A DNA stretch of 64,000 bases from Ramazzottius varieornatus (lineage: Eukaryota; Animalia; Tardigrada): assembly GCA_001949185.1 (NCBI GenBank), contig BDGG01000015.1, positions 253,036 through 317,035 on the forward strand, written 5' to 3'. Shown in pieces: positions 13,633 through 64,000 of the stretch. Within the stretch, counting starts at the first letter, position 1. Each line of letters opens with the position of its first letter. The notes under the pieces were generated by a model. It was not told the origin of the DNA and did not search any database. It saw nothing but the letters and a program-made list of their open reading frames with translations. Made by a program: the position numbers and the translations under genes.

Positions 13633-15555
13633 CAGTGTACGCCAATATGGTCACCGGAAACTGGGCGGAGTTTTTGGGCGTTAACCACAACGCCGACAAC
13701 CAATGAACAACAGTCAACTGCTGGATTTATTTATTTTACAATGAGCAGAACACTAACAGTAAAACAGAGACGTATACCATAAAACAGGAAATCTCATGAG
13801 GTAAAACACGAAAGATAACCGAAAATGAAATTATGAGTTCAGTAAGGGATGCGAGCTCCGGAGTTGTTGATACACTCAGTCATTCTGCTGTACATCGAGC
13901 TCACCAGGTTGCTGCAGTACTCGGGAGTAACAATTACCTTCCATGCTTCCTGAATTAGAGTGTCAGGCTCCTCAAGATCTTTCGGTCTTCGGTCGCAGAT
14001 ATACATATTCATTTTTCCCCAGACATTCTCGATTACATTGAGGTCTGGCGATCTAGACGGCCATGTTAACACCTAAAAGAAGTACGAAAAATTTATGTAC
14101 TTATGTTTATCCAAAAACAAGATATATTGTGTAACATGGGCGTATCAGATAAAAAGCACTATTGTTTTACGAGAAACAAACGTTGAATGAGTCCGCTCAT
14201 CCGCCTTCGCGCCTAACACCCTTCCGCAATGTTTTCGCTCGATTCAACAACCGATTGGTCTGCTATAGTAAACTTAAAAATTGAAAACAGAAATATATAT
14301 GCAGAAATATTAAAATGAAAAGCGTACTTCTATTCCTTCTCGCGAAAAAAATATTGACCCATCCGTCTAGAGGTGTCTTGCTGGAACACCAAATCCCGAC
14401 CATGCTTCTCAAGATACGGAAGTAGTCGCTCGAACAAAACGTCTTCGTAGGCTATTCCACCGTCAACTCGAATTAACGCTACAGGTCCACATGCTGTGAT
14501 GGCACCCCACAGCATTATCCCGCCTTTAATGCGCGTACCTACGGCGACTTGCAAGTCTTTATCGTGACGGTTTTCCTCTTTCAAGTACCAGCACTACAAC
14601 AATAAGTGATAAGTATATCGAATTTATCAGATTCATTAAACGCGTTAACGTGTTAAATTTAACAGGCACCTTGCGTTTTCGACGAAAGCCTTAAACAATT
14701 GACCAAGCAATTGAAAAATGGTTCCGAATGACAAACTTGCTTCTCGAAGATCTTAATATTTCGAGAGCGGAGATTCATGAATTCAGAAGGTTAATATTAT
14801 TTACCTCGATCTTACCACCGTGCAAGTTGAAACGAACTTCGTCACTAAAAACCACATCATGGAACAGGGTGGGGTTTTCCAGGAGTTGTTCACGCTGGAA
14901 CAGGCACCAGAACACCCAGTTGTCTTTGTGCTCCTGGGTCAACTCGTCGAGAACAGCTTTGGATCGACGAGTCTTAAACTCACGAAGCCGATTCAGCAAC
15001 GTCCGGTGGGCGAGTCCAGCTTCGACGGCGATCTTGGCCACACTCAGCTCCCGCTTTGCCTGAACAAGCCCAAGCATTTCGGCGTCCTGCTCCCCGCTCG
15101 TGATACGAGGTCGTCCCTTGGGTTTCACCACTTTCCGCTTCTTGGTTTCGGGATCATAATTCTCGATGACGTTCTTCACCCACTTGTGGTCTTTTCCCAT
15201 CACACGCCCAACAGCACTCAGATTCTTGTTTTCCTCTGAAAACAACTTAAAAACAACGCTGACAAGGGTTGGGTCCACTGGTATACCACGAACCATCTTG
15301 ACTTCACGAGAAGATCTCAGAATTTGCGACCGAAAGGATCTGGAGCTGAAAGGATCGCTCGGTAATACAGCTCAGTATATCGCACTACCGGCTGTTGCGC
15401 AACAGGTTCATTAGCAATCAGCTGTGCCTATTTACGTTTAATCAACCATGTCTAATCAACTAGATCGCTTTTCCTGGTTTTTAACTGGTCGTCTGCGGCT
15501 TGGCTGACGCCCAAAAACTCCGCCCAGTTTCGGGTGACCATATTGGCGTACACTG
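13633..15555 (-). mobile_element. Tc1-family DNA transposon, full length, TA TSD
   Basis: ~49-bp TIRs CAGTGTACGCCAATATGGTCACC(G/C)GAAACTGGGCGGAGTTTTTGGGCGT at 13633-13681 and 15507-15555. TA at 13631 and 15556. Confidence 0.95.
13839..15296 (-). pseudogene. Tc1 transposase with two introns, inactivated
   Basis: Exons 15296-14805 (HTH, GRPR, VVFSDEVRF), 14593-~14328 (GGIMLWGAI, FQQD) and 14072-13839 (WPSRSPDLNVIENVW). The NAPxH after QQD is missing, and a frameshift in a poly-T run gives an early TAG. Confidence 0.85.
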
Positions 15556-15837
15556 TACCTGTCCGGCGCAAACGGAAGTACGGAATACACTTCGGTCATT
15601 ACTTTGCTGCGTACTCCTTTTTTCTTGGGTTCTGACCGGCGTTCTGACCGGCGCTAGCGTACTCAAAATCCAGAGTTTTATTGTCCGCATTCATTTAGGG
15701 TGTTCCGTAAGGTAAATTACGCAAATCCAAACACAGAAACTTGCTCAGACAAACTAAAACAATTTTCACCGGTAATTAGCAACATAAGGCCACTTCTGGA
15801 ACTTTTATATCGTACACGGGAAGAAAATAAGCCAAGC

Positions 15838-22181: not shown

Positions 22182-24414
22182 ACTGCCGCTTTAGTCGTTG
22201 ACAACGGATCGGGTATGTGCAAAGCTGGCTTTGCTGGAGAAAACACACCTCGCGTCGTCTTCCCCTCCGTCGCCGGACGTCCCCGTCATCAGGTACTGTT
22301 TGAAATGTAAAAACAAGAAAAGCCTCTGTCCAGGAATCTTGAATCGAATCTTGAACGAAAGGATGCTACCTGAAGGATTCGAGTCGACGGTTTCTGGTTG
22401 TAGGATATGATGGTGGCTTTGGATAAGAAGGATTCCTACGTTGAAGATGAAGCCCGAAGCAAGCGAAGTGTCCTGAAACTGAAGTACCCCATCGAGCACG
22501 GCATCATCACAGACTGGGATGACATGGAGAAGATCTGGCATACGCCTTCCACGAACCCCGAGTGGTCCCTGGAGAACGCCCCGTCCTCCTCACTGAAGCT
22601 CTTCTCGGTCCCAAAGCTAATAGAGAGAACACGACGCAGGTATGCTAGAATAGTGTTATTTGAACATTAAACGCTTCTGGAAAGCTTGAATATTTTTTCT
22701 GAATGTCGTAACTTGGATGGGGAAGTTAGAAAGCAAAAGTGCGCCAGTCGACACGAACCTGGATACACAGTTTGTGCGCAGGCTACAGGGTCTTGGTATG
22801 TAGATTTGTGAAAGTGAGCGCGTTGTGCTTGTCGACCGCGCGAATGAAGTTGGAATGGCTCTCTGATGGGATTCAGTATTGGGCCTTCACAGTTCTTGAC
22901 ATCTAGGTTTTGTTTTTTGGTTACAGGTTATGTTCGAGACGTTCAACACAGTCTGTCCCCATCTACGAAGGTTGGTCTTTGTCTCGCTCCGGTCGAACAG
23001 AAGGGATCCTCGGAAAACAAACACAGACAAAATCGTTTTCACAAGTGGCGCACGTTCTAGTCAGTAACACAAATACCCTGCGCCACTTGGGTAAACAATC
23101 GGGTCCCGTTTCCAAGTGCCGCACGCTTTCAGCTAATAACACTGGTTACGTCCGCCGCTTGGCAAACAATCTTGGTGAGTTTGTTTGCCGAGCCCTGAAT
23201 GAAAATAGTGGATAACCTTCAGAATGAAACAGAAAAATACTGAAGTAAGAATATTGCTGTCTGCAGGTTATGCTTTGCCATACGCCATCACTCGTCTGGA
23301 TCTGACTGGTCGTGACTTGACTGACTACTTGATGAAGCTCTTGATTGAGCGTGGTTACAGCTTCGTGACGACCGGTACGGTCACCTTACCTCTTTCGGAT
23401 TATGATGCGCAGTGTGGTCGACATTTCCTGATTACAGCTGAACACGAATTTGTCCGTGGGATCAAAGAAACGCTCTGCTACGTCGCTCTGGACCTCGAGC
23501 AGGAAGTGGCCACCGCTGCTGCCTCGACTTTGTTGGAAAAGAACTATAGACTGCCCGATGGCCAACTCATCACCATCGGTGACGAACGCTTTCGATGCCC
23601 CGAAGCCCTCTTCCGGCCCAGCTTGGTCGGGACGCGGTTTCAGCTGGATTTAGACGCTACCGAGTTCTTCAGCTGGTTTTTCTCGGCGGTTTGAATTTGT
23701 CTTTCTTTCACGAAAATGACAGGGCCGACCAGTGCACAAACTTGTTTGAAGTTTTCTTGGGTATCTCGTACAAAATGAGCCCAATGGTTGTCTCGGCTGA
23801 CCACCTGGGTGAGATCGATTTCTCAAATGGCGCACTTTTCCAGCAAATAACACTGAAGATTTGCGCCACTTGCGCCTGATAACAGCGGTGACCTGCGCCA
23901 CTTAGGAGAACTATCGTTTCACTTTTTCAAGTGGCGCACGCTTTCAGTCAAGAACCCTGTAACAGTGCGCCACTTGGAAGATGATCGTGCTGAGTTTGTT
24001 TGTCACGATCCCAAAAATCTGGCACGTCTGGTCAGATTTGTATCAGTTTGTTACTGGGGAGCAGAGCCATCGATGACAAGCCAATTTGTTCTTTACAGGG
24101 GAAAAATCTTACGGCGCCCATCAGGTGCGACTCGGTCATAAAGTGCGGCACGGACATCCAGAAGGAGTTATACGCCAACACTGTCCTGTCTGGAGGCCCT
24201 ACCATCTTCCCCGGGTTCGCTGATCAGCTGCAGAAGGAAATCACCGCGCTGGCTCCTACTATGGGTATCACGATTAACGCTCCTCGAGCGAAAGAACTCT
24301 GCTTGGATCGGTGGCTCTGTCCTGGCTTCGCTGTCAACCTTCCAGCAGATGTGGATTTCCAAGGCCGAGTACGACAAAAGTGGCTCTTCCATTGTCCACC
24401 GCAAGTGCTTCTAA
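22182..24414 (+). pseudogene. Intron-retaining actin pseudogene
   Basis: [71 protein letters not shown] and [15 protein letters not shown]. No start Met, frameshifts near 22542 and ~24290, and a deletion between MFETFNT and PIYEG. Confidence 0.88.
23009..23197. repeat. Hairpin MITE family copy, actin pseudogene intron
   Basis: CTCGGAAAACAAAC...AAGTGGCGCACG...TGCGCCACTTGG...GTTTGTTTGCCGAGCCCTG. Confidence 0.75.
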
Positions 24415-25511
24415 AGGATGTCAGCTGTTTCTTCTGTTGGTCACGAATCTAGTCACGCTTTTGACATCTTTTCTGCAGCTCGTTCAGTTTGAAAGTCATG
24501 ATCTCAAGGCTCCCAGTTTTTACTTTCGGTGTTCGGATCTCTTTCAAAGAGCGATAGTACTAGTTTTATGGTTTTACAGATGATTTTATCAGTCTAACTA
24601 CAAAATCTTTTCTTTCGCTAACCTGCATGCAGTTCCTGCCTTCTGAAGAAGTTTTTCAAACCAAGGTAAAAAGTGATACCGTTTTACATGTCAAAATAAT
24701 GAAAGAAATTACTGTTCTGATAGACGGAGACTCGAGAAACAAAGTTTCACTTCGTTTATTGACAAGCTGCTCCATGACGGTGTTGATTGGGAAAGAAATC
24801 GAAGCGAGATCTCGTAAGAATGTGCCGATTTGACATGTTGCGTTGCGCAGGTCGTGGAGGCACAAGCAGCTTAACCACGTTCATCAACTTCTGCCGGAAG
24901 CTTGAACCGCGAAGTGCCATGCGAATGACGGGGACTACCGGAAATGTGTCCCAGCGGCGTTAGCAGGAAGTCAGTCTCCACTGCAGGAAACGGAGAACCC
25001 GTGGTCTCTAGACCGTTGATGAGCAGTCCTCCCGTCCGAGCCTTTGGTTTCCCCCGCGTGTTTCTCTGGGCTGCATTGCCTTACGGCATACTTCCGGATA
25101 TCGGGATTGTGAAGTTGGTTTCTTGTACAAAGAGGCGGTGGATAGCAACCTCAGGTTTGGTTTGGGCAGGCAGTTCAGGACAGTGTTGGTCTTCTGGATC
25201 TCCTTTGAAGCCCAGGCGAAAATCCAAAAGCTCGTCCACCTGTTACCCGTCATGGCGTCACGGTTACGTCATCCACCTGTTTACGTTTTTGCACTGACTT
25301 GACATATTTCCAGAGTCAGACTTTCGCTCGTAGTCTTCGTTCCTACAGTACAGAGCTCTGTGACTTCCGTCGGAATGCGTCCTGTTAAGGCTGTTTTTGT
25401 TCACTGTCAGATCTTCCCGAACGTCCAGATCGATTTCTGGACACTAAACATCAACATCGTTTGCCCCAGGTGACTTGTTTCTAGTTTCACACGTCGCGCC
25501 TGGTCTCGAAC

Positions 25512-32624: not shown

Positions 32625-35262
32625 TTTATCACTCTGACGTCGCATTCTTTTGTGTCGAATTAAGGTGAGAATATGCTTTGCGGTTTTGAAAGCTTTAATT
32701 TATGCTTTGAGAGTCTCGAAGATAGAGTTGGGTTTTTATTGTGTTCAGTGATGTGTTTCCTTGTACTGTCGAGATGGGCTAGAAATTGTGCAGCAGTTAG
32801 TTCAAGTCCATCGCACCAGCAATATCAAACGTGGTCCGAACTCGGAACTGAAGTGATCAGGAGAATACGATTACATATAGAAAGAATATAGTGCGAAAAC
32901 AACAAACTTACAGCTTAGCAAAACTGTCAAACAAACTCGACATGACTCTTTCCTTAGTCGCGCACGTTTACAGTATAATTGGCTGAATGCGTGCGTCAGT
33001 TGGGAAGACGATCATGTCAGGTTTCCCAAAGTGGCGCACGCTCACAGTGTTACTGGCCGACAGCGTGCGTCAATCACTTGCAAGAACGATCCTATCGACT
33101 TCGCTTTACCGAGCTCTCGAGTGTCAGAAAACAAGGGAGTCACTCAAGCGGAGACCGCAGACATAATCTTCACAATCTTTGAGGAAGGGACGTGATGGTG
33201 GCTCGATGTGCATTCACTGCTACCAGCAACCGCCCAAACCACGCACAGTTCAGCGTACCAAACTCCCGAGGACTGCTGACCGCTTCGGCGCGGTTTGGAT
33301 TCCTATAAGTCTCATCACATTCTCTAACTTCGTAATAAGAAGTTCGTCTAGAATATTCAACATAATTTATGAGGATCTGATGACAAAACACGGTTCAGAT
33401 AGACTTACTATTTGACAAACTGTTGATCGGCATAGCGGGAAGTTCTCTGGGTCCGCCCTTTCGAAACGTTGACGGTGTTTTTCAGCCATTCCGACCGATC
33501 ATCCTTGTGGGGCCAGATAAGTTCCATCTTGTCACACTGACGCAAGAGCCAAAGTCAAGCTCGGTGATTTACAGGTTGCAAGAATTTCTCAACACCTTGA
33601 GTACCGGGCGGGACACTCACTTTCCTAGCGCACACTAATTTGCATGTAGCGAGATTCCAGTTAAACTTTTGCTGGTCGGTTTTCCCCTTTTGCCTGAAGA
33701 ATCAACTTATCTTCAAACTGTAACTAACGGCCACTGGCCAGTAGCTCTACAAAACTGTCTGAATTTTTTTCCGTTCTTGATGAAATTTCGTCGTAGCCAG
33801 CCAACTGTTTTTCCAGCCATGCTGTCGGCTGGTTCAGAGTCTCCAAAAAAATTGTAGCTTGAGACAAAACAGTTTTGCATGTTGCGCAAGTTTCAGATTC
33901 GTGAAAAGATCTGCCCAGTGGTCAAGATAAAGTCATGAAGGTTAGCAGTTTTGAGTCGGTAGGTGGCGTACTTTAATTATGTTCCCAAATTTCGACCAAT
34001 CGAGAACTTGGTGATTGGGCCTATTTGGCGACGCCCCTAGCTTCAACCAGTTAAAAAAAGCGAAAGTGACTTCCCCACCTGGTATTCTGAAAGCCCGAAA
34101 TCGGGTGGTGCTCAAGGTGTTAAATACTATCTGCGGGAGGACCCCATCGAGGAACCATACGAAAGCATTTCTTTTAGCTCTCTTTGCTGGACGATCGTCG
34201 ATGCCACGGGCAACTGTACATGAACGATACTTCTTTGGTAATTCCATCAGCCAACGTGAGCGGTCTCTCTACAGTCCAGCTCGGGTAGAAAGGGTCTTCC
34301 CATTGAGGTTTGAAGCTCACGATGCTGTACAGGAACAAACACAGGTCCGGAAAGGTGTCCTTCGCGTCGATGAAGTTGCGGATCTGTCTACCGGGTACCG
34401 GACGAACGTGACAGTTGATGTCTTCACGGACTCGTTCTTCCTCTTCCGAATAAGGCACTGTCCGGAAGTTGGTGTGGGTCATCGTGGATATGCCGTTGCT
34501 GTAGTCTGGGCCTGGCCGAACGTTTGACCCGTCACCGATAATGATCCCGCTGGTGCTATCCGTCCGATAGGAAACGATGTTTGTTGGTTCGGTCACGAGC
34601 TTGCGAAGTGCAGATGGGTAGTGTCAAGTAGAAACCCTAAATCATGAATTTTTTCCAACTGTTCAGGAATCGACTTTTTGTGTCTGGGCACCTGAGGGCG
34701 ATCCGAGGGTTTCTGTACGATGCGATAGAACAACTCAAGAGCTTTCTATCGCGCTTTACAGAAATTTTATCAGAATTATGAGACGGAAGATATTGACGGG
34801 GCAACCAATGGTGAGAAAATGAAAATTTCGAAAACGCAATATTCTAAAATGAAACTGAAATATGCTTTGAAACTGAACACTGGAATTTCGATCACGTTTG
34901 AAAACGCAAATGAGATAGGAACTTTCAAAACAGGCACAAAATACCATAAAAGGTTGAAGTGTAACAGTGAGGAGTTGAGGTGATACATTTATAATTATTC
35001 CTCGTCGAGTCCCCCATTGCTTTCGTCTTCCGAATCTTCGTCCATCGGCTTTTTGTACATTGACTTAACGTAAGCGATCTATTCTTCTTGCTTGTCAGAG
35101 GATACGAACTGGGTAATCTCTTTTCTTACTCTGCTTTGTCTCATGTACACTTCTTTGTTGGCCAACTCACAGTACAGACGGGTTGAATGTTCATCAACTG
35201 CGCTGCTTATGGCTTTGAATGTGAACAGCCGTGAATACTTGAGACGCAGCAGTTCTTAATTA

Positions 35263-38071
35263 AGATCGGGATCACAACAGGGAGGGGAGCAATCTCGTAC
35301 AGAGAAATTTCTGAGCCGCTGCCCAGATCCCTTCCTAGAGAAAATCTTGAGCGATCTTCCGACTTCGGTAATCGTTTTGCATGTTTTGATTGACAGGATT
35401 TGCTCTTGGTCATCCCGCCATCGGGGATATTTCTCTTGATTGTCTGCACGCTACAGACCAACCCGCCCACCGTGGACTTTGGACTCTGACGTCAGTCAAC
35501 CTGTTTTGAAAGTTTTGTCCCATACTTCCGCGTTTTACATCGGGTACCACAGCAAGCGCCCAAGCCGTCCGCAGTCTTTACAGGAAAAGTTCTACGTTGT
35601 AATAAGGGTTCGGCTAATTTATGGTAATGGGGGATAATTATTTTCTTTGAATCTACAAAGTATTACGGGCGTGGGACGAATTTCGTAATCAAGCGGGACA
35701 CGGTAAAGACACTAAAACGGAAGCAAAGCTAGGTCATTGTCATCGTCAAGATCCAGAGGCTCCAGGTCTCCGCCCTCTTCAGCAACGTCCTCATCGGCTT
35801 GCTCGTCACCATCTGCCTCAATGCGGTCTTCCTTTGTGTCGATATCCCAGTAGTCATCCTCAAGCTTGATGCAATGGGCGAAGAGCTTAGGGAAGTCTTC
35901 TGGCTTGAAGACATCAGCAGATTCTTCCCACAGCTTGATCAGGTCAGGCAGCTTTCTGGTGGTGTTTTGCTTGGCGACATACCCTTTGCGGCGGGCCCAG
36001 CATTCTCAATCGGGTTGAAGTCACAGTGGTCGGGCGGCAGACGAACTGTCTCGATGCCTTCTTCGGTCTTCAAATAGTCATCCATGTAGTACCTGTCGCC
36101 CACGTGATTTTTCAGAAAGTCCGTCACCTTCTGCAACAGCTCGGCCACCAGTTCCCGCGCATCGAACTCGATCCTATGGTCAGTCAGCCACTGCTGGATT
36201 TCTTTCTTCACTCTCTTGGGTCTTCTGAACTGTGGCATCAAGCGGGAATGATAACTTGCGTTATCCAGCACGATCACAACCGTGTCATATCCGTGGAGCC
36301 GAGCAGATTCTTTCAAACGGGGAACCACCACCTCCTTCATGAACGTGAAACCATAACAGCCAAAATTTATCATGACGTCATCGAAAACTTGAAGCATTGG
36401 CATTCCGTCACGGTAAGAGTTTCATCACAAATTCTTTCGCAATCAGAAAGACCCAGTCGATATTTTCATTTTGTCTGCTCGGACCGGAAAGATCCAACCA
36501 ATGGTTTGCGAGATACACTCAAAAAACTCAATTTTGACCCACTTTTTTACTTTTCTCAAAATCAAGCCACTTGATTGACCTGATGCAACGAGCGAATCTC
36601 TTCGGAATGAAAAGACCATCAAAACAGATCATACGTGTTTTGATTGATTGATTTGACAGACTGGCTTACTTCTCTTAGTTTTGGTAGTTGAAATTCCCGT
36701 GGTAGTCCCCACTGTGCTTTGAGGCTTGCCAGATAAGTCCACATCCGGGAACGAATCCCCTATCCGTCACCACGTCGAAAATGACCAGACGCTTTCCCGA
36801 TCCACTTGGATGCGACTGTCCGCAGCCCTTGCACAGGATTTCGGCTGTGCCGGTGGATTTTTCTTTGTCGAGTTCGATCCAACTCTTGCGAAACTGGTAG
36901 TTCTCGTTTAACCAAGTCTCATCCAGGAAGGCAATCAGGGCATTCTTCTGTCGAAACTGACGAACCGCTTGGATGTAACGGATACGCCTGACTTTGAGGC
37001 TTGGGTCACCAAACAGGTTGTTAGTGAACCGATCCCGATATCGGAAGCCCGTTCGACGTAACACACGATACATCGTGGATCGTGGATTTCGACACCTTAA
37101 CACCGACTTCCTCCTCCACCAATGGCAGTAGAGATTCCACCGTGATGTGTATCTTACTCTTGTACTCCCGGTGAATGATCGCACGAATTTTCCCGTATTC
37201 CAACTCCTTCAACAAGTGCCGACCGACGCCCGCGACACCCTCCATTTCTTCCGCCTCGACAACCGGGTCCAAGGTTTCATTTACGTCATCTTCCGGAACG
37301 GTGTTGCTCTCGACTGCAGTTCCGCTCGGTGGACCAGTTATCAAATCCCAGTTCGTAGTGATGTTCTGGATGGTGCGTGAACTTCACTGACACAGATGCG
37401 CGATTGCCTTACGGCGACCTGCCAGAGTGGTCAGAGTATATTTATTCGGCCCAAAAAACGACTGACCCAGCACTTTCCATAAATGAGCAATATGCCTCAC
37501 ATCCACGGGATACAGAGAAGAACTGGAAGACGTCTCTCAGCTCCCTGTTAGTTTTGTCAGACTACGGTATACGCTATTGTAGAATACTGTGGTGCATTTG
37601 AAAACTGAGGAGACGGTTTTCGCTTGTGTTTGATGGAAGCTCTTATCTCTCCAGTTTTCTCCTGGCTGACTCTTCATACTTTCCAGCTGTGATAGGAGAA
37701 GACAACAAAGGAGTTGTCTCGACTCTATCGTTTTCCAACGTGCAGCATGAAGGTCAGATGCCAGAGGGCCGATAAGAATATCGTCTGTGCCGGTACCTTT
37801 TACATTTCACGCACGCAACAGATTTCATTTTTTGCCTGCTGACGTCAGAGTCCAAAGACCACGGTGGGCGGGTTGGTCTGTAGCGTGTGGACAATCAAGA
37901 AAAATATCCCCGATGGCGGGATGACCAAGAGCAAATCCTGTCAATCAAAACATGCAAAACGATTACCGAAGTCGGAAGATCGCTCAAGATTTTCTCTAGG
38001 AAGGGATCTGGGCAGCGGCTCAGAAATTTCTCTGTACGAGATTGCTCCCCTCCCTGTTGTAATCCCGACCT
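35263..38071 (-). mobile_element. IS630-Tc1-mariner element with long DD-E spacer (Sailor/DD82E-like), ~230-bp TIRs
   Basis: Near-identical inverted repeats 35263-~35494 and ~37839-38071 (AG(A/G)TCGGGAT(C/T)ACAACAGGG...), TA on both sides. Confidence 0.88.
35712..37370 (-). pseudogene. DD85E transposase, frameshifted, with one intron (~36670-36360)
   Basis: AFLDETW, GSGKRLVI, GDYHGNFN, VIVLDNASYHS and RLPPDHCDFNPIE. I count 85 residues between the second D and the E. Frameshifts near 37070 and immediately after NPIEN. Confidence 0.82.
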
Positions 38072-39133
38072 TAATAAAAATCAAAAATCTCCCCATTTGC
38101 ATAATTTTAGGGAAAAACAGTGTCATTCAGGGGGTTTTTTTCTTCCCAAGGGCGACGAAATTTTAACGTTTTTTTGCCGGCTTCTTTGTGTGCGGCCTTT
38201 TGCGGCATTTTAGAATTCGATGCAGCTTTTTGTCTCTACAAGATAGGCTAAGAAAATCATATTCCGGAATTTTCGCATGATTTAGGGTTTCTACTTGACA
38301 GTACCCTGATGTTAGATCGCTGAGGGATCTATCTTCGAGCCGCAGAAAAGAATAATTCTTGCTGTGCTTTACCGGATGTTCGGGGAGTATAGTGGCTAGA
38401 ATGTATTCCAGGGAGAACAGACAGATGGCGTGGTTTTGAGCTGCGGGTACGTTCGATGCGGCTGTCTTGAACATTTCGACCGCAATGAACAGGTCTGGAC
38501 CCGGAGGACCTGTTCTATCCATCCTGGAATCTTATATCTGCCAGTGATACAAACCGTGGAGCCAGTACAGAAACGAATTTGGGATATCTAATAAAAAAAC
38601 GGATGGACGGGTCGACGGGATATGCTTCAAGTAGACCTCGCGGAAATGGATCGATAGCGCTTACAGAAAACAACAGAAAAAGCGTCGGGGACTCACATCC
38701 ATCCGTAACGAAATTTCAAGGCTCGCCCGCGCATTTCTGGTTCACGCCTGGGGCTGAGTGCGAAAGCCCCTGAAAATATCCTGCGGTGGATTGAACTTGA
38801 CTGACTGTCAATCACAGTCTTCACAAACCATGGACTTCGATACAATTACTGTATGTTGTGGTTCTTTCAGCTCGACAGCTGATCCTGTGAGTGATCCGAT
38901 CGATAAATGAATTCACATCTTTGGTTTCAGAAGGATACTGGAATAAAGGAGACATTTTTACGGTTCGAGAAGTCACAACGAGAAAGGATCAGCTGAGGAT
39001 CTCCTCTTCGGTACGTCGAAAGGTAATCGTCTCATTCGTTTGCCGTTCTTTCTTCCGTATCGTAATCGCTTGTTGCGTCACATCAACGTCTTGTTCAATC
39101 TCTGTATCTATTTATCTAGACTGAGGAAGTTCG

Positions 39134-54973: not shown

Positions 54974-55246
54974 TGTAAAGCCTCCCACTGGCTTAACAAG
55001 AACTCTAAAAGGTCGGTCAATGAAGAAAGAATTAGGATCAAAAGAGAACTGACTGGGCAGAGTTTTCTTTATTAGTAATTCTAGGTCTCAAGAGAAGGAA
55101 AGGAAAAAAGAAGTCCCGACTGTTACTGAACAGTCGGTTTATATACTTTGACAGCGTCGCAGAAGGAAAGAGAAAGTTCTAGAAGTACGTGAAGTGTTCG
55201 TGCTGATTCAGCACGAGTGCTTTATTGCCGAGGTAAGCTCTTTACA
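54974..55246 (-). repeat. 3' LTR (273 bp) of the env-carrying retroelement
   Basis: Terminal inverted repeat TGTAAAG...CTTTACA. On the minus strand a purine-rich GAGGAGG precedes it, with TATATAA (~55140) then AATAAA (~55070) inside. Partner LTR not seen in the window. Confidence 0.7.
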
Positions 55247-56062
55247 GAGCCTCCTCGCGTAGTGCTCCATCGTTATTCTCAAGTATTGCCTTGTTGGCTG
55301 CGGTTTGGCCTTCGGTCGATGTTGGGTTGTCTTGAATGTGGACGATTTAATGGCCCACTAGAACTCAGTCGAATGCTCGAAGAACTCAGAGCACAGGTCG
55401 TGCCATTCAGGCACCATCGTCTCTCTTGGTTGAATGATGAGACAGGGTAGGAGGTATGTGTTGCTGGCCATAGCTTTGACTAGCTGTTGGCTTCGACGAA
55501 GTACGTGCGCCGGTCGCGCGTACTGAAGTAAATGGTAGTAACGCTCCGTGTAGTTGATATTAGGGTCTAGATCAAGGTGGCCTCTGTACTGTCTGAAGGT
55601 AGTGGAGCTGAAATCAAAATTATCCAGTGCTTCAGGAAGCCGTGCTGACATGATAGGCATCGCTTCCGGATAGACCACGTTGGTGACTGTACCGTCACAG
55701 AAGTAGTTGATGATGCTTGGATCAGTGCGGAACAGCTTGGCTTGACCCTGAGTGTGAAGATCGGAGTGTAGATGTCATACAGTGCCGTGATCCACGTGTT
55801 AGTGATGGCGATATCTTAGTGGTATAGTGTGCAGTACTGAGGGTACATCGGTATCTGCAACAGCGACATTTCGGAAATGGGTGGTTTCACGAAGGACTGA
55901 GTCGGTCTAAACTAGTGCACGCGTCGGTAGGATAGCCGAAAAGGGAAACCATTAGGAGGGTGAGTAGTAGTTGTCGGGGTGGGATGCCGGGGTTGGTTGA
56001 TCGTCCGGCAGTCGTTGATTGTCATTTGTTTAGCTCGGTAACTTCTTCGTTTAATTCATTGA

Positions 56063-58625
56063 TTAGCTTCCTTGCTGGCGGGTTCGGGGGGTTTTTAGCG
56101 TGGAGTTGTTGTAGATGGAGTTAGACTCGGTAAGATGGTACTGTTTTGGTTTCTTCTTAGGACAGCAGCATGTCAAACAGCTGCGCAGAATCTTCCAGCC
56201 ACAGCATTTAACTATAATCAGGCCTACGATGACAATCGGAGCTAAAACGAAGAGAACTATTTAGACGTTTCTGAGAGAAGACACGAATCTCTCGATTGCT
56301 CCTGAAATCCCTTCGCCGATTACTGCAACGGTGTTGGTCTGTTCGCTATCCTGTCGCTGAGCGTGAGTCATCGTGTCAATCAGGGAAAGGCTTCCGGAAT
56401 TTTCCATGATTGCTGATAGCTCGCCGAGAAGGTCAAAGTAGCTGCGATCAGATGGCTCGTGCCGATTGGCCAACGACTGCATTGCAGTCGAGTCAGCCTC
56501 CATCTTGAACATGGCTGCCAAGTGATCATGGCTAATGGATATCGTTTGTTTGGCCTTCTGCCAGTCATGAGCATCTTCTTTCCATTCCATTATTTGATCG
56601 CCAATTGTCGTAAAGAGGCCGCCGTGTAGGCGGGGAACGAAGGGACAGCCATCAAGACTTAGAGAGTTGAGGACGAACGGTTCCATTCCACACTTGGTCT
56701 TCTTAGCACCGACATCTGTGGTTACTTTCTGACACTGGTACAAAAGGGCTTGTGACGTTCCGTGTGCCGTGATAGAATGGCAATCGTTTAGACCGATCAG
56801 TTTTGCGGCACGGACCCCTGACTGCTTCGCCATCATGGACAGGAGGGCTGCTTTGTTGAGGCGGGATCGACAGTCCAAGTTGCGGATTTCATTATTCAGA
56901 ATGTTGGAAATCTGGACTTGGTTATCGCGTAGGTACTGTAGGTGTGATATCAGGGACTCTTGGCGAAGATCACCAGAGGCTGCATACGGGAATACTTCCG
57001 CCACGTCGGTATCGCTTGACTGGCGTAGTCGGTTCAGAAAGCCGACCTTGCTTTGTGCTCGCAATCCGGATTTTGATTGCTGCTGAGCTGGCTGAATAAA
57101 CGGTGGCTGAATATGTGGTAACACCAAGGGTAAAGCTACGGGTGGCTCAGGCTTACTTGGTGGGATAAATATATAGGCTCGTGTTGCGGTGGTAGTACTT
57201 GCATCTGCTTTGGTGCTTGCATGTAACGAGGGCCGTCGTGGAAGCTTTGATGACCGCGAGCGGATTTGCTGATTCTGTTACCGTCAGGATCATACTGTCT
57301 TCGGACATCTGCCCGGAACTGGGTTTCAGTCTCCAGGTTGTCCTGTTCTTTTGCAGCTGCTTCTGAAGGAGCCTTTCGTCTTCCGTTCGAGTCCATTTTA
57401 CTTGCAGTCGGCGCTACTCTAACCGGTCTTCGTACTCGGTTAGTGGTAGCATTTGCGACAATGCCTGTGGTTGCGGTCGCTGTGGCAGGTTGACAGGGAC
57501 CGGCACTGGTTGCGAAGTACTGGTAATGTTGATTGGTCGCTGGTTTATGACTTGCTCCGTCGTTAGGTTGATAATCGGTGGCATGACCATTTCCGGCATG
57601 ACTCGTGTGGGTTCGGAAATGTTGGTGGGGGTGCCTCCTCGCTGTTTTCTGAGTTGCCTCCGTTGAGCCTCTAGTCGTAGTTCGTACGGAGACTTGGGTT
57701 CAACCCATCTTGGACGGGAGGTTGGTTTTGTGCGAGGCTGTTGGGCTTGACGTTTGTATCGACTTGCGACCAGATCTAGGACGTCATCGTGCTCTTCTGA
57801 TGTGTAGGTGAAGTTGAGGAGGACGTCGGAGAATCCTTTGACGACGTGATGCATGTCGACGAGCGTAGTACAGTTAGTTCGCTGATTGTTGAGATAGGAT
57901 AAATTCAACTTGCTCAGTAGGGTCCCGTAGACGAAGATCGGTCTTTTCGAGTTTGTACATAGTACCAGAATCGTTGGCGACAAGCTGGTACTCGCATTCT
58001 TTCTTCTTGGGCGATTGGTCAATCGCGTTCCATATCACGGTCATGTGATTCTTGCTCTCATAACCTTTGTTGCGGTCGGCACCGAGTTCGAGATGATGGG
58101 GTCTTTCGAGATGAAACGAGATGATGGGGTCTTTCGGACCGTTCTAAGTGAGGACTGTATGTAGGTCAACAAGATAGTCCAGAGTTCTTCGTAGTGGTCA
58201 TCCAGGAGTATTCACGGGAAGGCTTACGTCTCGGAATTTGATAAGCGAACCATAGGGTTCCCGTTGCAGGAAAGCGTTTGAGCCGTTCGCTCACAGTCTG
58301 CATCAGAGAGATCGACTGGGCCGGACGAAGGTATCGTATCTGTGGCACCCCAGAAGGATTTTTAGGTTTCAATCTGTTGCAGCCTAGCTTTGCAGGTTGT
58401 TCCGATAAATTACTGGGCACCCTTTTTCATGGCGTAGATGGAATAGTTGACATGCCGTGGCTTGGGCTCTGCCGCCAGCTTTTCACATGTAGTATGGGTA
58501 GCTAAATCCAGAAGACCCAGAAGGTGTTGATTTTTGCAATTGCGATGTCTGCCTGAATAGTGAAGGCCGTAGGCAGCATGATGAAACACAGTACGAATAT
58601 GGGCCAAGCAGGGAGGTGGTGCATG
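56063..58625 (-). pseudogene. Envelope glycoprotein, herpes gB/class III fusogen-like
   Basis: Signal-like AWPIFVLCFIMLPTAF, Cys-containing ectodomain, furin site RYKR, helix LQYLRDNQVQISNILNNEIRNLDC, TM IVLFVLAPIVIVGLIIV and Cys-rich tail. Frameshifts and a TAA at 56261. Confidence 0.7.
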
Positions 58626-59031
58626 GCATTCATCTGGCGTGGTGGTTTTGTACGGGTTGATCGGCGAGCCCTTGCAGCCGACTTGGTTTGGTCCTGGAGG
58701 TCCTCGTCGGACTCTAAGATGTTGTCAGCGCTAAGGCCCGATAACAATCGGTTTCCGCGTTGTTTCTTGGTGCTTAGTACCTTGACCGCCTTGACCACAG
58801 ACGTCGTTTGCGGTTGAATTCCCTGTCCGGATTGGCTTGGGCTGCCCTCCCGCTCAGAGTCAGGAGGGTTTGCCAAGTTAGAAACGCTGCGGTACTTGCG
58901 TAGGATGGGAGGGTCTTCAAGTGTTTCCAACCTAGGTCGAGGAGTTGCTTCCCGAGTGGTGGCTGCTTGCGGTGTCACCGGGCGAGGATCAGGAATCCTG
59001 AGAGGAGGCGGCATGGCCTTGGATGCGATGT

Positions 59032-61571
59032 TCAACCTTCTTGGTGGGGTACAACTTGATCGCCTACTTTGAGCGGCGTTTCCTTAAAGAGGGCTAGTTG
59101 ATCCGTGTGATGCTTCGTGACGTTGATAGCAGGATATGTTGGACTCCGGATACACGATACAAACGTAGCGTTGTCCTTCTCGACCATCTGTTGATTGGGT
59201 AACTGATCACTAGGGACCAAGACTGGACTATTGGTCCCGGTCAGCTTGAGAAAGTCTGGCCAAGACAAGATGTAGTCGTATTTCTGTGGCATTAATTGCA
59301 GTACATGAGCTCTGCACCATGTAGATCTGTTGTAGGCTGAGATTTTGAGGTTGATGTGGCCTTCTATGATCATCGTTGCTCCCAAAATCTTGATGTGCTC
59401 GTCACGTTGCAGGAGGGGTAGCAAGGATAGCTGCTTGATAACATCCAAGGATACGCAAGTGACTGTGCTTCCGGAGTCGAGTAGGGCAAAGGCTGGGGTA
59501 CCTTCGATTTCTAGCTCTACAATAGCTGATTGACCGGAATCGGTCGAAATATAGTTCGACAGGACATCGGTAGCAGTGTTGCTGTCATCGGAGGTCATCA
59601 CAAGCATGGAAAATTGTTGTGGTGGCGCGTACGTCATCTGGTCGCGACGTGCTTGAGGTCCGGTAGAGGCTTTGTTGGGTCGGTCTGGATAACCGGAGCC
59701 GAAGTGTGGTCGGCCGCAGACGTAACAAGACACTGCACGGTTGGTTGGTCTAGACGTCGCAGTGAAAGTCCTTGCCGACTGACTGGCGGTATTTGTAGTA
59801 CCACCCGTAATGTTATTGTTACCCGGTCGTGTCTGTACTGTTTCTGTTGTGACCACCTCTTGGTACTGAGGTCTCGGCGTCTGGGATGTTGGTTTCGCGA
59901 TTACGGTTATTGTAACCACCGTTGTAACTGCTGTTGGACCTGTTGAATCCGTTGTCGTTGCGGTTGAAACCTCCACTGAAAGCATTTCTGTAGTTGTCTC
60001 TGTTACCGTTACCGCGGTATTCACCGTTTTTGGAGTTCCCACCATAACTCCGGTTGTTGTTACTGTTCTGGTACCGGTTGTAGTCGTTGTAACTTTGGTA
60101 TCCTCTGTTGGACTGGTTGCGGTATCCTCCTCGGAAACTGGCTTGTCCGTTGAAGGCGCCGTGATAGTTGTAGTTGCGGTTGATGTTACCGTTGTACCAC
60201 GTCCCGTTATTTTGCCGTTCGGGCGTGTAGACACGAGTCTGCACAACCTGTGCTGTTCGGTGCGGCATTGGGTCCGCTATGTCGTTAGGCATTTGTTGTT
60301 CCCTAAAGATTCGGGTTTGCTGCGACGTTTTCTTCTCTGCCTCGATGACTCGAGCAGTAATCTGCTTGAACTCCGCTGGAGTTTTAGGATTCAGGACTGC
60401 GACCAATTTGCGAACCCCCCAGGGAGGCCTCTGGCTAATTTATCTGCTATCTCCTCGTTAGTAAACTTTTTCTCATGTTTTGCAGTATGCCATACCGGTT
60501 CATGACTGCGTCGTAGTATTGATTGACGCTTTCGCCTGGCTGCGTATTGCGGCGATTCAACTTGGCTGTTCGAAAGGCGAGGGATCCGGCTGGTCGGAAC
60601 TCGGTCTTCAGATCTGCTTTCAGGCGCTCCCATGTTTCGTTATTGTGTGTTGGTCGGCGGTTCCACCAGGAATCCGCTGAGTTACGGAAGCGTAAGAACG
60701 CATGTTCCACCATGTCCCTCGCTGGGATACGTTGAAGCTTGCAAGCCGTCTCAAACTTCTTGATGAAAATACCGATTTCTTCGTCGTCATGGCCGTGGAA
60801 CAACGGCATTGGAATGTTGATTTTTGTGGCAGCTATAGCCTCGATGAGGGTATCGGCATCGAGCTTGACTTTCTTCGGTATTTCGTTGGCGTTGTCATCG
60901 TCGTCGTCCTGCTGTTCGGTCTTAACTTTATCGACAGCGTCTGTTTTGGGCAAATTGACGAACAGACCTTTCGCTTCGTCGTTTTGTTCACCTCTTTCTC
61001 CCCCTTTTTCATCATCGTGTCGTTCGATGTCGTCACTGTTGGCGTTCTTGGCCATTTCAATTTGTTGTTGTGCAGCTCTGGTGGTTTGAACGTGCTGGTT
61101 GTGGTGATGGTCTAGCAGATCAGCGTTGATCGTAGAAATTGGGTGGTCCTCGTCGGAGGCAGGTGAATTGATATGTCCTTTTAGTCGGCGGAAGGTGGAC
61201 GCAACAATTGACTTTGCGTACTCAGTTGCCAAGCTGTCGGTGGTAGCGGAAGAAGTAGTCGAAGTTGACGACTGTAACGTGTTATGGGCAGAGTTGAGTA
61301 GTGGCAACGTTGAGTCGTGATGATCAGATAGAGTAGGAAGTTCGGTATCCGTGTTAGTAGCGTGCTTATTTTTGACGACGGTTACTTCGAAACGTTCTTC
61401 TGTTTTTTGTGGTGACGTAGGGACTGACGAAGCGGTACGAGCTGTACCCTTTTCGGGCGATCCTGGTATTAATGCAGACTTCCTTGGCGGAATTACAATC
61501 AAAAAACGGTAAGATGATAATGAAGTGCAAGGCAGATTTGCAAACTGACAACCAGTCTTCGGCCAATCCAA
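59032..61571 (-). pseudogene. Retrotransposon gag + aspartic protease
   Basis: Capsid-like MPLFHGHDDEEIGIFIKKFE...ADSWW...TWERLKADLKTEF...QPGESVNQY, N/G/R/Y-rich region, decayed knuckle CYVCGRPH and protease ALLDSGST. Several frameshifts. Confidence 0.82.
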
Positions 61572-62222
61572 CCAGTATGCTACTGTGGTTAATTGTAAGG
61601 TACGAATATTTTGATGAAAAATTTCGGTTACTCGCGGGTCAGCTTATTATACGATAGAAAGGTCAGTTTGACGAAGGTAACACGGTAACGTATCAGCGTA
61701 GAATGCGCAAAGTAAGATACTGCTAATAGGAAAGTAAGACACTACTAGCAGGACAATAAAAATATTGCTATTGTGCGCGCATGCTATTGTATGCGCGAAA
61801 CCAAATTACCACGGTGGGTTACAGGTAGCAACGTATGGCCACGTTATAGACGCTCACGGTTTTGGTTACAACTATGGCTAGTTTCACGGTAGGCGGCTGT
61901 AAACGTGCACTCGTGTTCGGTTACAGCAACCACCGGCTACTGTACAAGGCAACGTTAGACGTGCGCGTGCTTCTACTTTTAGACCGTCAGTTACAAACAA
62001 CATAAGGCTACGCGAGGCGTGCACACGTGTACGCAAGAAGCTTTGTTCAAGAAAAAAATAAGATTGACGCCCGGACCTTCCTTAATTACGAAACGAACAC
62101 GGAAGTACTTGGGGTCAATGAAGGTAAACTGTCAAGGTAGGCGGATATACACAATTGCGTAAGCCATTTGCCCAGCCTTCGCACAGTCCCCAAACACTGA
62201 TCCCAAGCGAAGGCTGATTGAA

Positions 62223-63095
62223 CTAACCTGAGATTCGCAGCATAGCTTGGGTCAAGGACACCATATCTGGTCGGACGTATCGGTTTGAAACGTCGCTGCT
62301 CCATCTACCCATGGCCCTAATCTGTTCCATGGAGCATCCGGCTTTAGAAGCCGTCGAAGCCGCTCCTATCCGGAAACTATGAGAGGTAAAGCCATTCCCG
62401 AGAAAAGTTTGTAGCTCGCGATTGACACGTTGGCGAGTCAGGTAGCATCCATCATGGGAAATGAATAATGGTATATGCCTGGCTGAAGATCTGACTAGCA
62501 TATGAGCGTGAAGGGCTTGCACGGGACAAGTATCCGTTTGAGTTTTTGTTAGATAAATTGTTTTGCGATGCGTTTTATCTCGCCGCAAACATATTTGGAC
62601 CGAATCGCAGGATATTTGTAAGTCGTTCAGGACAAGGTTTGATTTGTCAAAACTTGTCTCCTTCGAACTGGTATACTCGGACACACGTAACATGCCGTAG
62701 AAGGCCATGGTAAAAGCCGACCAAAGCATCAGTTGGTCGTGTCGAAGAATGAGAGACCCGAATAGGTCAACTTTGAGCTGTCGTAAATGTTCTATTGTCA
62801 GAGGTTTTCTCTTGTATGTGTCGGGACGGGTTTGGTTGGTTAGACCTTTCAACATCATTGAGAGGTAATGGTCATTTCTACCAGGATCTTCGAAACCGTG
62901 CTCCAGTTGTTCTGAACGTACGCCGGCTACATAAACTGTCGCTGTTTTCCCGCTTAGCCCTTCGCTATCCAACCAGGAAACGAACCGTCTGATGGTTTGG
63001 CGATCCGTAGGGAGATAAGGGAGATGATGGCTCAAACAGAAAGAGCGAAATCGCTCAAATCCATGTCGGTAGCCTCTTCTGGTAGAGGTGGCCAA
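62223..63095 (-). CDS. DIRS/Ngaro-type tyrosine recombinase
   Basis: AFYGMLRVSE (R), DKT (K), CPV, HSFRIGAAS (HxxR) and GRWSSDVSNRY (W, Y); open frame of 290 codons. Confidence 0.9.
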   Translation of the reverse strand: MATSTRRGYRHGFERFRSFCLSHHLPYLPTDRQTIRRFVSWLDSEGLSGKTATVYVAGVRSEQLEHGFEDPGRNDHYLSMMLKGLTNQTRPDTYKRKPLTIEHLRQLKVDLFGSLILRHDQLMLWSAFTMAFYGMLRVSEYTSSKETSFDKSNLVLNDLQISCDSVQICLRRDKTHRKTIYLTKTQTDTCPVQALHAHMLVRSSARHIPLFISHDGCYLTRQRVNRELQTFLGNGFTSHSFRIGAASTASKAGCSMEQIRAMGRWSSDVSNRYVRPDMVSLTQAMLRISG

Positions 63096-63169
63096 TCGCT
63101 TACTGACGAGCTCTCGCGATCTTGCATCGAGTTCGAACAGTTTCCGGGTTCTGGCATGATCTCCCGCAA

Positions 63170-64000
63170 AAAATCGAGTTGAATGCCGAGGAAGGTGAGT
63201 TTAGTCGTAGGGCCCTCGGTTTCCTTTCGCTATGGGCACACCAAGGTGTGCACATAATGCTCGTATAGAAAATGGCACGCAGGTGACGAACTAGGTACAG
63301 CCCACCAGAAATCGTCGATGTAATGCAAAACGTCGAGCATTCCGCCAGTGGTCTTAATTTTCCAGTCGAGAATTTTGGAGAGATCATCGAAAAAACTAGG
63401 TGAAGATCGACACCCAAACGGCAGTACCGTATCGAAATAATATTTTCCATCGCTTATGTAAACAAGCAGATGCCAATCCTCTTTCGTGACTGGTATGAGT
63501 CTAAAGGCGCCCTTCAAATCCGTTTTCGCCATCAAACAGCCCTTTCCAAGTTTAAGACAAATATCAATGGCGTCGTCGACTGAACAGAAATCAAGGGTAT
63601 AATCTGTTTTCGAAGTGTAATCGTTGACTGACTTTCTGAAGGGTCTGGACAAGTCCATAATAAGGCGAACTCCGCCTAGTTTTTTGGGGCGTACACCCAT
63701 AGAGGAACAAATGAAGTTGAGAAAAGGCGGATGATTCAAAGGACCAACGGTGTGCTTTGCAGCGACCTCTTTGGCTACATAATCGCGTACGACCTCATGG
63801 TGTTCCCGAGCAGTTCGAGCGTTAGGTGTAATTTGAGTAACATCAGGGCCGGTATAACCCAGGCGAAAACCGTTGATAAGACCATTGACGAAATAATCAG
63901 CAAATTCGGAGTCGGGATATTCCTTCAGGGCACGAGCAAACCGTTCTGGTATCAGCGGGGTGTATGCTTTATCAGGAATTTCAACAGAAGTAAAATGATG
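63170..64000 (-). pseudogene. Ngaro/DIRS reverse transcriptase, C-terminally deleted; continues beyond the window
   Basis: RLIMDLS, SVND, MAKTDLKGAFRLIP, LPFGCRSSP, HYIDDF, then a frameshift and FLGIQLD, followed almost at once by the YR ORF with no RNase H. Confidence 0.88.

What the first reader, a model, noticed from the sequence alone, without database searches (positions are those of the whole stretch)
54974..62080. Endogenous retrovirus-like LTR element with a herpes-gB-like (class III) envelope
Seen: gag, protease, a low-complexity linker, then a glycoprotein with signal peptide, furin site (RYKR), TM and Cys-rich tail, ending in a TG..CA LTR. The post-furin helix LQYLRDNQVQISNILNNEIRNLDC has the same L-Q...N...C register (24 aa) as HSV gB LQFTYNHIQRHVNDMLGRVAIAWC, which I recalled from memory. 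It is followed by a similarly spaced K...G...C block. Known: gB/chuviral-like env captures are described mainly in Bel/Pao elements (nematode Tas, insect Anakin); insect errantiviruses use baculovirus F. Inference: a gypsy-type gag with a class III fusogen in this host may be an undescribed, once-infectious retrovirus lineage.
Basis: partly seen in the sequence, partly recalled or inferred. Interest (0 to 1): 0.85.

Follow-up and report, generated by a model that had tools for sequence, protein, structure and literature searches.

The report
Broken tardigrade retrovirus-like element, gB-type envelope
This is a broken copy of a virus-like jumping gene in a tardigrade genome that carries an envelope gene predicted to fold like the herpesvirus fusion protein gB, a combination that is real here but already catalogued in tardigrades and many other animals.

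Summary
Observation confirmed; novelty not. The minus strand holds gag, protease, an integrase C-terminal stub, a linker, a broken env (5 stops, 5 frame changes), an unexplained 3' ORF and one 273-bp LTR. RT, RNase H and the integrase core are absent. A tyrosine-recombinase retrotransposon abuts the 5' side, and no 5' LTR lies in the window. Ramazzottius varieornatus gene model RvY_17210 matches two pieces letter for letter, so the host is this tardigrade. A model of an intact natural homologue matches class III fusogens (HSV gB, Foldseek E 2e-6, VIA Z 9.9); rhabdo-like G proteins score as well or better among predicted viral structures. The window's own unbroken piece gives only sub-threshold class III hits. 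Chary & Hayashi (PMC13524379) list Ty3/gypsy elements with gB-type env across animals, five from tardigrades. This env is about 46% identical to a Hypsibius protein that matches their Hduj_errantivirus_6 by eye. The scan noted the same kind twice before in other genomes. What remains of interest: a sister copy shares the pol deletion, suggesting a non-autonomous subfamily, and the env carries a large insert where relatives carry lectin domains.

The parts
62064..64000 (-). Neighbouring tyrosine-recombinase (DIRS-order) retrotransposon: RT 63233-64000 running off the window, YR 62226-63200. Not part of the env element; abuts or interrupts its 5' leader.
   Evidence: PF00078 E 2e-8, PF02899 E 3e-4, PF00589 E 0.002; loose ends of 4-6 contigs at 62064 with differing flanks
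61644..62063 (-). Likely 5' leader of the env element; no LTR and no PBS seen
   Evidence: no LTR self-match in the window; inference from position
60450..61643 (-). gag, N-terminal and capsid part (open 398 codons stop to stop)
   Evidence: PF03732 E 5.8e-5, just under cut-off
59822..60439 (-). gag continuation in another frame (N/G/R/Y-rich)
   Evidence: sister model P0156 aligns across it
59035..60276 (-). T-rich spacer, degenerate zinc knuckle (59727-59704), aspartic protease (active site 59481-59467), then an integrase C-terminal stub (59073-59053); RT, RNase H and integrase core missing
59050..59090 (-). Two deletion junctions: likely pol-deletion junction near 59090; a further loss of about 178 codons (integrase SH3/GPY-F tail plus spacer) at 59050 relative to sister model RvY_08249
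   Evidence: tblastn of P0155; loose ends at 59049, 59052, 59081-59090; contig of a second sample bridges 58900-59119 with no differences (X4 record 17)
58634..59083 (-). P/S/T/R-rich linker, in frame with the env signal peptide
   Evidence: same in-frame layout in P0016, P0037, P0159
57762..58633 (-). env signal peptide and domains I-II (fusion and PH-like domains), broken by stops and frame changes
   Evidence: homologue model
57750..57761 (-). Furin-type site RYKR
   Evidence: same motif in Hduj_errantivirus_6 row
56981..57749 (-). About 260-codon low-complexity insert between env domains II and III (disordered plus a long helix in the homologue model)
56264..56980 (-). env core helix, beta domain and C-terminal arm (domains III-V like); largest unbroken piece
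   Evidence: model pLDDT 80.5, pTM 0.54
56063..56263 (-). env TM helix and Cys-rich cytoplasmic tail, cut off from the ectodomain by a stop
55358..55869 (-). Extra 3' ORF of about 170 codons in two frames, function not found; also present in sister model RvY_01988
   Evidence: 85% over 110 aa and 67% over 43 aa to P0047; no Pfam, PDB or usable Atlas hit
54974..55246 (-). 3' LTR, 273 bp, TG...CA
   Evidence: other copies join or end at 54974 and 55244, and contig depth is 157-215 against about 22 on the unique flank in run X1

Best explanation
This is a broken, multi-copy LTR retrotransposon in a tardigrade genome, most likely a Ty3/gypsy 'errantivirus', whose envelope is predicted to be a class III (gB/G-type) fusion protein and whose RT, RNase H and integrase core are missing. 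Shown: the parts, the breaks, sister loci in the same species, and a tardigrade relative with RT-RNase H-integrase-linker-env in one reading frame. Inferred for the intact ancestor: an LTR-driven RNA made Gag and Pol; Env, whose signal peptide is in frame with the integrase tail, would have been released by signal peptidase or made from a shorter RNA, cut by furin at RYKR, and assembled as a trimer that fuses membranes. Particles would then pass between cells, by analogy with Drosophila gypsy from gonadal soma to germline. Inferred for this family: a derivative that had lost most of pol was copied at least once, likely using enzymes of a complete element in trans. This copy then lost more sequence, accumulated stops and frameshifts, and cannot make a full Env or replicate by itself.
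For: Host and copies: RvY_17210 is 100% identical over 129 and 80 aa and 95.6% over 274 columns. Three other R. varieornatus models on contigs of different length match parts at 82-95% (RvY_08249, RvY_12109, RvY_01988). Class III fold: model of P0001 (pLDDT 71, 114-row alignment); 37 of 38 listed PDB rows are herpes gB and 1 is VSV G, best E 2.1e-6; the top 7 VIA rows are class III, HSV gB Z 9.9, rmsd 10.8, 356 aligned, Chandipura G Z 9.0, rmsd 3.3, 119 aligned. Window's own piece: 27 of 36 listed rows are class III. Gypsy link: Paramacrobiotus P0159 has RVT_1, RT_RNaseH, Integrase_H2C2, rve, Integrase_p58_C and SH3_Tf2-1 in that order, then an env matching the window at E 1e-10. The integrase tail of sister P0155 aligns to it at 36% over 81 aa, E 2e-9. 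Catalogued relative: H. exemplaris P0006 is 45.8% identical over 107 and over 59 columns and matches the Hduj_errantivirus_6 row by eye. Missing pol: no YxDD in six frames of 54974-62064, and no P0159 RT, RNase H or integrase alignment in register there at E <= 1. P0155 runs protease to integrase tail collinearly with the window.
Against: No RT is present, so the defining Pol phylogeny could not be run. Gag and protease Pfam scores are below curated cut-offs. The window's own env piece has no Foldseek hit at E <= 0.001 (best 0.12) and its best VIA Z of 6.5 ties with unrelated coiled coils; the significant structural result is from a homologue that is 27-41% identical piece by piece. TM-scores are low (0.12-0.19 by query). 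Sequence searches found no class III relative at E <= 0.001 in the PDB, and only 5 of 90 aligned proteins hit PF24664, best E 0.0012. Among predicted viral structures, rhabdo-related and nyamivirus G proteins rank above the first gB (rank 9), so 'herpes-like' describes the fold, not a donor. The shared pol deletion rests on one other gene model plus contig ends; segmental duplication could also explain it. One P0159 stretch (413-456) hit 57884-57759 at E 0.14, inside env and out of register; I treat it as chance.
Confidence: 0.88

Rival explanations
1. A BEL/Pao element with a captured gB/chuvirus-like glycoprotein, like Anakin or Tas.
For: Such elements exist (PMC7642597, search listing; PMC13524379 section 14). 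No RT is present to exclude it directly.
Against: Gag hits PF03732 and the protease hits gypsy-type PF13975/PF13650, with no BEL/Pao family among the hits at E <= 1. The sister copy has an SH3/GPY-F-type integrase tail. The tardigrade env relatives sit on a pol with gypsy-type domains, and the paper classed all its elements as Ty3/gypsy by GyDB HMMs.
Confidence: 0.03
2. A glycoprotein gene of a negative-strand RNA virus integrated recently and independently into an env-less gag-protease element at this one locus, or an assembly chimera.
For: The best hits among predicted viral structures are rhabdo-related G proteins (E 2.5e-12). The region is repeat-rich and no contig spans it whole.
Against: RvY_08249 links protease, integrase tail, linker and the env start at another locus; RvY_01988 links env and the 3' ORF at a third. 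Identity to viral G is 7-15% against 40-50% to metagenomic and Hypsibius env relatives. A second sample's contig bridges the linker junction unchanged.
Confidence: 0.04
3. A domesticated host gene: the annotated spliced model RvY_17210 is a real gene made from env.
For: A 465-aa gene model exists in NCBI/UniRef; the 239-codon piece and the 138-codon 3' piece are open.
Against: The model has no signal peptide, no domains I-II and no TM, and joins env to the unrelated 3' ORF. Its Atlas structure has pLDDT 0.29. This copy lacks one cysteine that is nearly invariant in the family. It looks like a gene predictor splicing round stops.
Confidence: 0.03

Closest known systems
Tardigrada_Eutardigrada_Hduj_errantivirus_6 (ENV_HSV; Tardigrada group C2c), Chary & Hayashi, eLife 2026, PMC13524379
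   Same: Tardigrade host; homologous env domains I-II with the same cysteine spacing, RYKR site and a low-complexity insert after it (by eye); 45.8% identity through P0006.
   Different: Different genus and only about 46% identical, so a separate family. That element is listed as intact with 2 copies; this copy lacks RT, RNase H and integrase core and has a broken env. The Ramazzottius genome row in the paper has counts 1 and 1 and no annotation mark.
Paramacrobiotus metropolitanus gB-env Ty3/gypsy elements (Pmet_errantivirus_4/5 in the paper; XP_055356454.1 = P0159 here)
   Same: Integrase tail, linker, signal peptide and env in one frame; env 26-34% identical; inside the same 35-row branch of a quick tree, SH-aLRT 98.
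   Different: Has full pol; the insert between domains II and III is short (45 aa in P0037). I did not test whether P0159 is one of the paper's two elements.
Herpesvirus gB, rhabdovirus G, thogotovirus GP and baculovirus GP64 (class III fusogens)
   Same: Predicted domain order and fold.
   Different: 5-22% identity in structural alignments; no partner glycoproteins encoded; large insert after the furin site; no single donor family is indicated.
TelKA2n, non-autonomous env-retaining LTR family of bdelloid rotifers (PMC5408684, passages)
   Same: A family missing most of pol that keeps env.
   Different: F-type env, also lacks the gag C-terminus, different host.
Anakin (mosquito BEL/Pao with chuvirus-like glycoprotein; PMC7642597, search listing only) and nematode Tas (recalled)
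   Same: Class III env on an LTR element.
   Different: BEL/Pao backbone; here gag, protease and integrase tail are gypsy-type.

Membership tests
Ty3/gypsy (Metaviridae) | RT/integrase phylogeny or GyDB Pol HMM places it in Ty3/gypsy | not testable with these tools
Ty3/gypsy (Metaviridae) | Order gag-PR-RT-RH-IN | tested here: inconclusive
   gag, PR and an integrase tail are in that order here; the full order is seen only in relative P0159
Ty3/gypsy (Metaviridae) | Gypsy-type gag and protease; SH3/GPY-F integrase tail | tested here: met
   PF03732 E 5.8e-5 and PF13975 E 0.005, both under cut-off; sister P0155 PF24626 E 0.033 and 36% to the P0159 tail, E 2e-9
Ty3/gypsy (Metaviridae) | Two LTRs, target-site duplication, PBS and PPT | tested here: inconclusive
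   One LTR only; the 5' side is occupied by another element up to the window edge; no PBS seen; the paper also lists no tRNA or LTR for its three Hypsibius elements
HSV/gB-type errantiviruses (Chary & Hayashi, operational term) | env with signal peptide, TM and class III ectodomain | tested here: met
   significant for the homologue, sub-threshold for the window's own piece
HSV/gB-type errantiviruses (Chary & Hayashi, operational term) | Homology to catalogued members | tested here: met
HSV/gB-type errantiviruses (Chary & Hayashi, operational term) | Tardigrade C2c cysteine-bridge pattern in domains I-II | tested here: inconclusive
   Cysteine positions agree by eye with Hduj_6; the figure defining C2c could not be read
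HSV/gB-type errantiviruses (Chary & Hayashi, operational term) | Intact gag, pol and env (the paper's inclusion rule for its catalogue) | tested here: not met
   pol deleted; env has 5 stops and 5 frame changes. So it is a decayed relative, not a catalogue entry
HSV/gB-type errantiviruses (Chary & Hayashi, operational term) | Trimer formation and fusion activity | not tested
   monomer models only; no activity data
BEL/Pao (Anakin, Tas) | BEL/Pao gag, protease and integrase-tail families | tested here: not met
   none among Pfam hits at E <= 1 for 14 ORFs; gypsy-type families hit instead

The most novel reading that the evidence does not exclude
Class III errantivirus envelopes have an exchangeable module slot between domains II and III that supplies attachment in place of herpes gD/gH-gL: a mucin-like and coiled-coil insert of about 260-300 residues in this tardigrade lineage, beta-trefoil lectin domains in a sister branch, and almost nothing in others (4-617 residues in 51 of 114 aligned proteins). 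In Ramazzottius a pol-less subfamily that kept this env and an extra 3' ORF spread as a parasite of a complete element.
Probability: 0.2. Interest if true: 0.55.

Novelty: new member of a known kind. Interest (0 to 1): 0.22.

Why it matters
As a single locus it matters little: it is one more, damaged, member of a kind published in 2026, and it extends the tardigrade gB-type lineage to a third genus for which that survey annotated no intact element. It also shows that gene model RvY_17210 is probably not a host gene. The more useful lead is the variable insert. The paper says cell entry by gB-type errantiviruses is unexplained because they lack gD, gH and gL, and its main text does not contain 'lectin', 'ricin' or 'mucin'. 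If the insert is an attachment module, that question becomes testable.

Tried and rejected
Pfam found nothing on any env piece or on P0001 beyond E 8.7. phmmer and profile searches of the PDB gave no match at E <= 0.001; the gp41 and spike rows are membrane-proximal and TM composition matches and were rejected. The wide VIA search of the window piece was filled by coiled coils. The metagenome locus scan with P0001 found 39 pattern matches and 0 confirmed. Atlas hits for the 3' ORF were all under 0.9 by features and TM at most 0.32 by structure; kinase-like leads were not accepted. No RNA holder was listed; contigs of one guessed-RNA run cover parts and another covers none, which is no evidence on expression. 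The careful tree did not finish; the quick tree has SH-aLRT only, uses 99 segments of the stored proteins that matched over more than 110 columns, omits P0003 (same locus), and few rows have a host name. A gag-env-pol order was considered and rejected: the integrase tail precedes env and the LTR follows it. The bacterial promoter scan is not applicable. Literature searches: errantivirus/gB/gypsy/envelope, tardigrade/LTR/envelope/Ramazzottius (nothing on this element among 15 listed of 43), lectin/ricin/env-like/retrotransposon/gB (2 papers, both unrelated), chuvirus/Pao/Anakin. Figures of PMC13524379 could not be read, and only the Tardigrada rows of its supplements were viewed, so the lectin or insert observation may be shown there.
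Full report
Observation. The minus strand between 62063 and 54974 carries, in order, gag (PF03732 E 5.8e-5, just under cut-off), a degenerate zinc knuckle, an aspartic protease (PF13975 E 0.005), a short integrase-tail-like stub, a low-complexity linker, a glycoprotein gene with hydrophobic leader, RYKR, TM and Cys-rich tail, a further ORF of about 170 codons in two frames, and a 273-bp TG...CA LTR with 7-bp inverted ends. There is no second LTR in the window. From 62064 to the window edge lies a different element with RT and a tyrosine recombinase; contigs of its other copies leave the window sequence at 62064. It may have inserted in the leader, which would put the 5' LTR beyond the window; this is inference.

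Host and copies. The rest of the window holds intron-containing animal genes (actin, cullin, reprolysin and others). R. varieornatus model RvY_17210 (P0003) is identical to the window over 129 and 80 residues and 95.6% over 274 columns, so it is a gene model of this locus and names the host. Three more models from this species, on contigs of other lengths, match parts of the element at 82-95%. Contig depth in run X1 is about 22 on the unique flank, 57-112 over env and 157-215 over the LTR; depth is not a copy number, but it agrees with several copies.

The envelope. A search with the 338-codon piece found one longer protein among 3704 candidates, P0001, 835 aa, unbroken. It aligns in order over five pieces of the window. 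Those pieces hold 5 stops and, with the leader, need 5 frame changes. P0001 found 288 representatives at E <= 0.001, of which 150 were listed. I folded P0001 with 114 of the stored proteins and the window's largest unbroken piece with 89. For P0001, 37 of 38 listed PDB rows are herpesvirus gB (best E 2.1e-6) and one is VSV G; the top seven VIA rows are class III, led by HSV gB (Z 9.9, rmsd 10.8, 356 aligned), with coiled coils from Z 7.2 down. Among predicted viral structures, rhabdo-related and nyamivirus G lead (E 2.5e-12) and the first gB is ninth. The window's own piece gives no hit at E <= 0.001, though 27 of 36 listed rows are class III and HSV gB is first (E 0.12); its VIA scores are within noise. 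So class III is well supported through homology, while descent from herpesviruses in particular is not.

The backbone. No YxDD occurs in the element's six frames. A Paramacrobiotus protein (P0159) with RT, RNase H, integrase and env in one frame matches the window's env but not any pol in the element. Sister model RvY_08249 follows the window from protease to the stub at 94.8%, then has 178 further residues, including an SH3/GPY-F-type integrase tail, before rejoining the linker at 59050. So at least two loci share the loss of RT, RNase H and integrase core, and this one lost more. Contig ends at 59049 and 59052 agree with that second loss; others at 59081-59090 show a variant that diverges there, and none was listed between 59100 and 59420. 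Whether that variant carries RT is not known.

Comparison. PMC13524379 (read: abstract, sections 5 part 1, 6, 9 part 1, 14, term passages, Tardigrada rows of five supplements) reports gB-type env on Ty3/gypsy elements across animals and lists five tardigrade elements, all ENV_HSV. Its Hduj_errantivirus_6 row matches H. exemplaris protein P0006 by eye and shows the same RYKR and post-furin insert; P0006 is 45.8% identical to the window. The Ramazzottius genome was screened there but not annotated. A pol-less, env-keeping family has a precedent in rotifer TelKA2n (PMC5408684, passages). Two earlier notes of this scan reached the same verdict in other genomes; I had found the paper before seeing them, and searches by sequence and by place returned nothing.

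Mechanism. Shown: anatomy, breaks, sister loci, in-frame integrase-linker-env layout in relatives. Predicted: class III fold. Inferred: furin cleavage, trimer, fusion, soma-to-germline spread (analogy with Drosophila gypsy, as discussed), and mobilisation of the pol-less form in trans. This copy cannot encode a full Env or any RT.

What is left over. The stretch between domains II and III varies from 4 to 617 residues in the 51 of 114 aligned proteins that have both halves. It is about 260 codons here and 300 residues in P0001, disordered with one long helix. Twelve of 90 members of one alignment hit the beta-trefoil lectin family PF00652, as did 9 of 17 proteins scanned, 12 of which I had picked as long homologues, at positions inside this stretch; in the quick tree the four labelled ones lie on a branch apart from the window. 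Their hosts and genomic context are unknown. The 3' ORF is shared by a sister copy and has no identified relative.

Verdict. Real, correctly read, but a new and damaged member of a kind already described, in this phylum too. Interest 0.22.

Noticed in passing
P0012, P0034, P0039, P0046, P0056, P0062, P0065, P0078, P0142 (homologues of window 58633-56063): Class III env homologues of 780-1200 aa carry beta-trefoil lectin domains (PF00652, best E 1e-14) between domains II and III; hosts unknown, some clusters have many near-identical members.
   Followed up: partly
window 62064-64000 (-): High-copy DIRS-order element with RT and tyrosine recombinase; other copies diverge at 63173-63175, so this copy seems to have lost the RNase H region. 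A contig joins the env element's LTR edge (55244) to position 62120 on the opposite strand, which suggests the two families are nested at another locus too.
   Followed up: partly
window 55869-55358 (-): Extra ORF between env and LTR, conserved in a sister copy, no Pfam, PDB or Atlas assignment.
   Followed up: partly
window 652-41779: At least 17 copies of a 55-nt imperfect palindrome (AAGTGGCGCAC...GTGCGCCACTT), often in or near introns; looks like a MITE-type repeat.
   Followed up: no
window 35256-38078: DNA transposon with 240-bp terminal inverted repeats at 97% and a split DDE_3 transposase.
   Followed up: no
window 13627-15561: Element with 85-bp inverted ends and a Tc1-like transposase fragment at 14778-15371 (no Pfam hit).
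   Followed up: no
window 23209-24452 (+): Divergent, apparently broken actin-like copy interrupted by the palindromic repeat (PF00022 E 3e-21).
   Followed up: no
window 55116-55137 and 55198-55216: Two short perfect or near-perfect hairpins inside the LTR, one directly after the TATA box.
   Followed up: no
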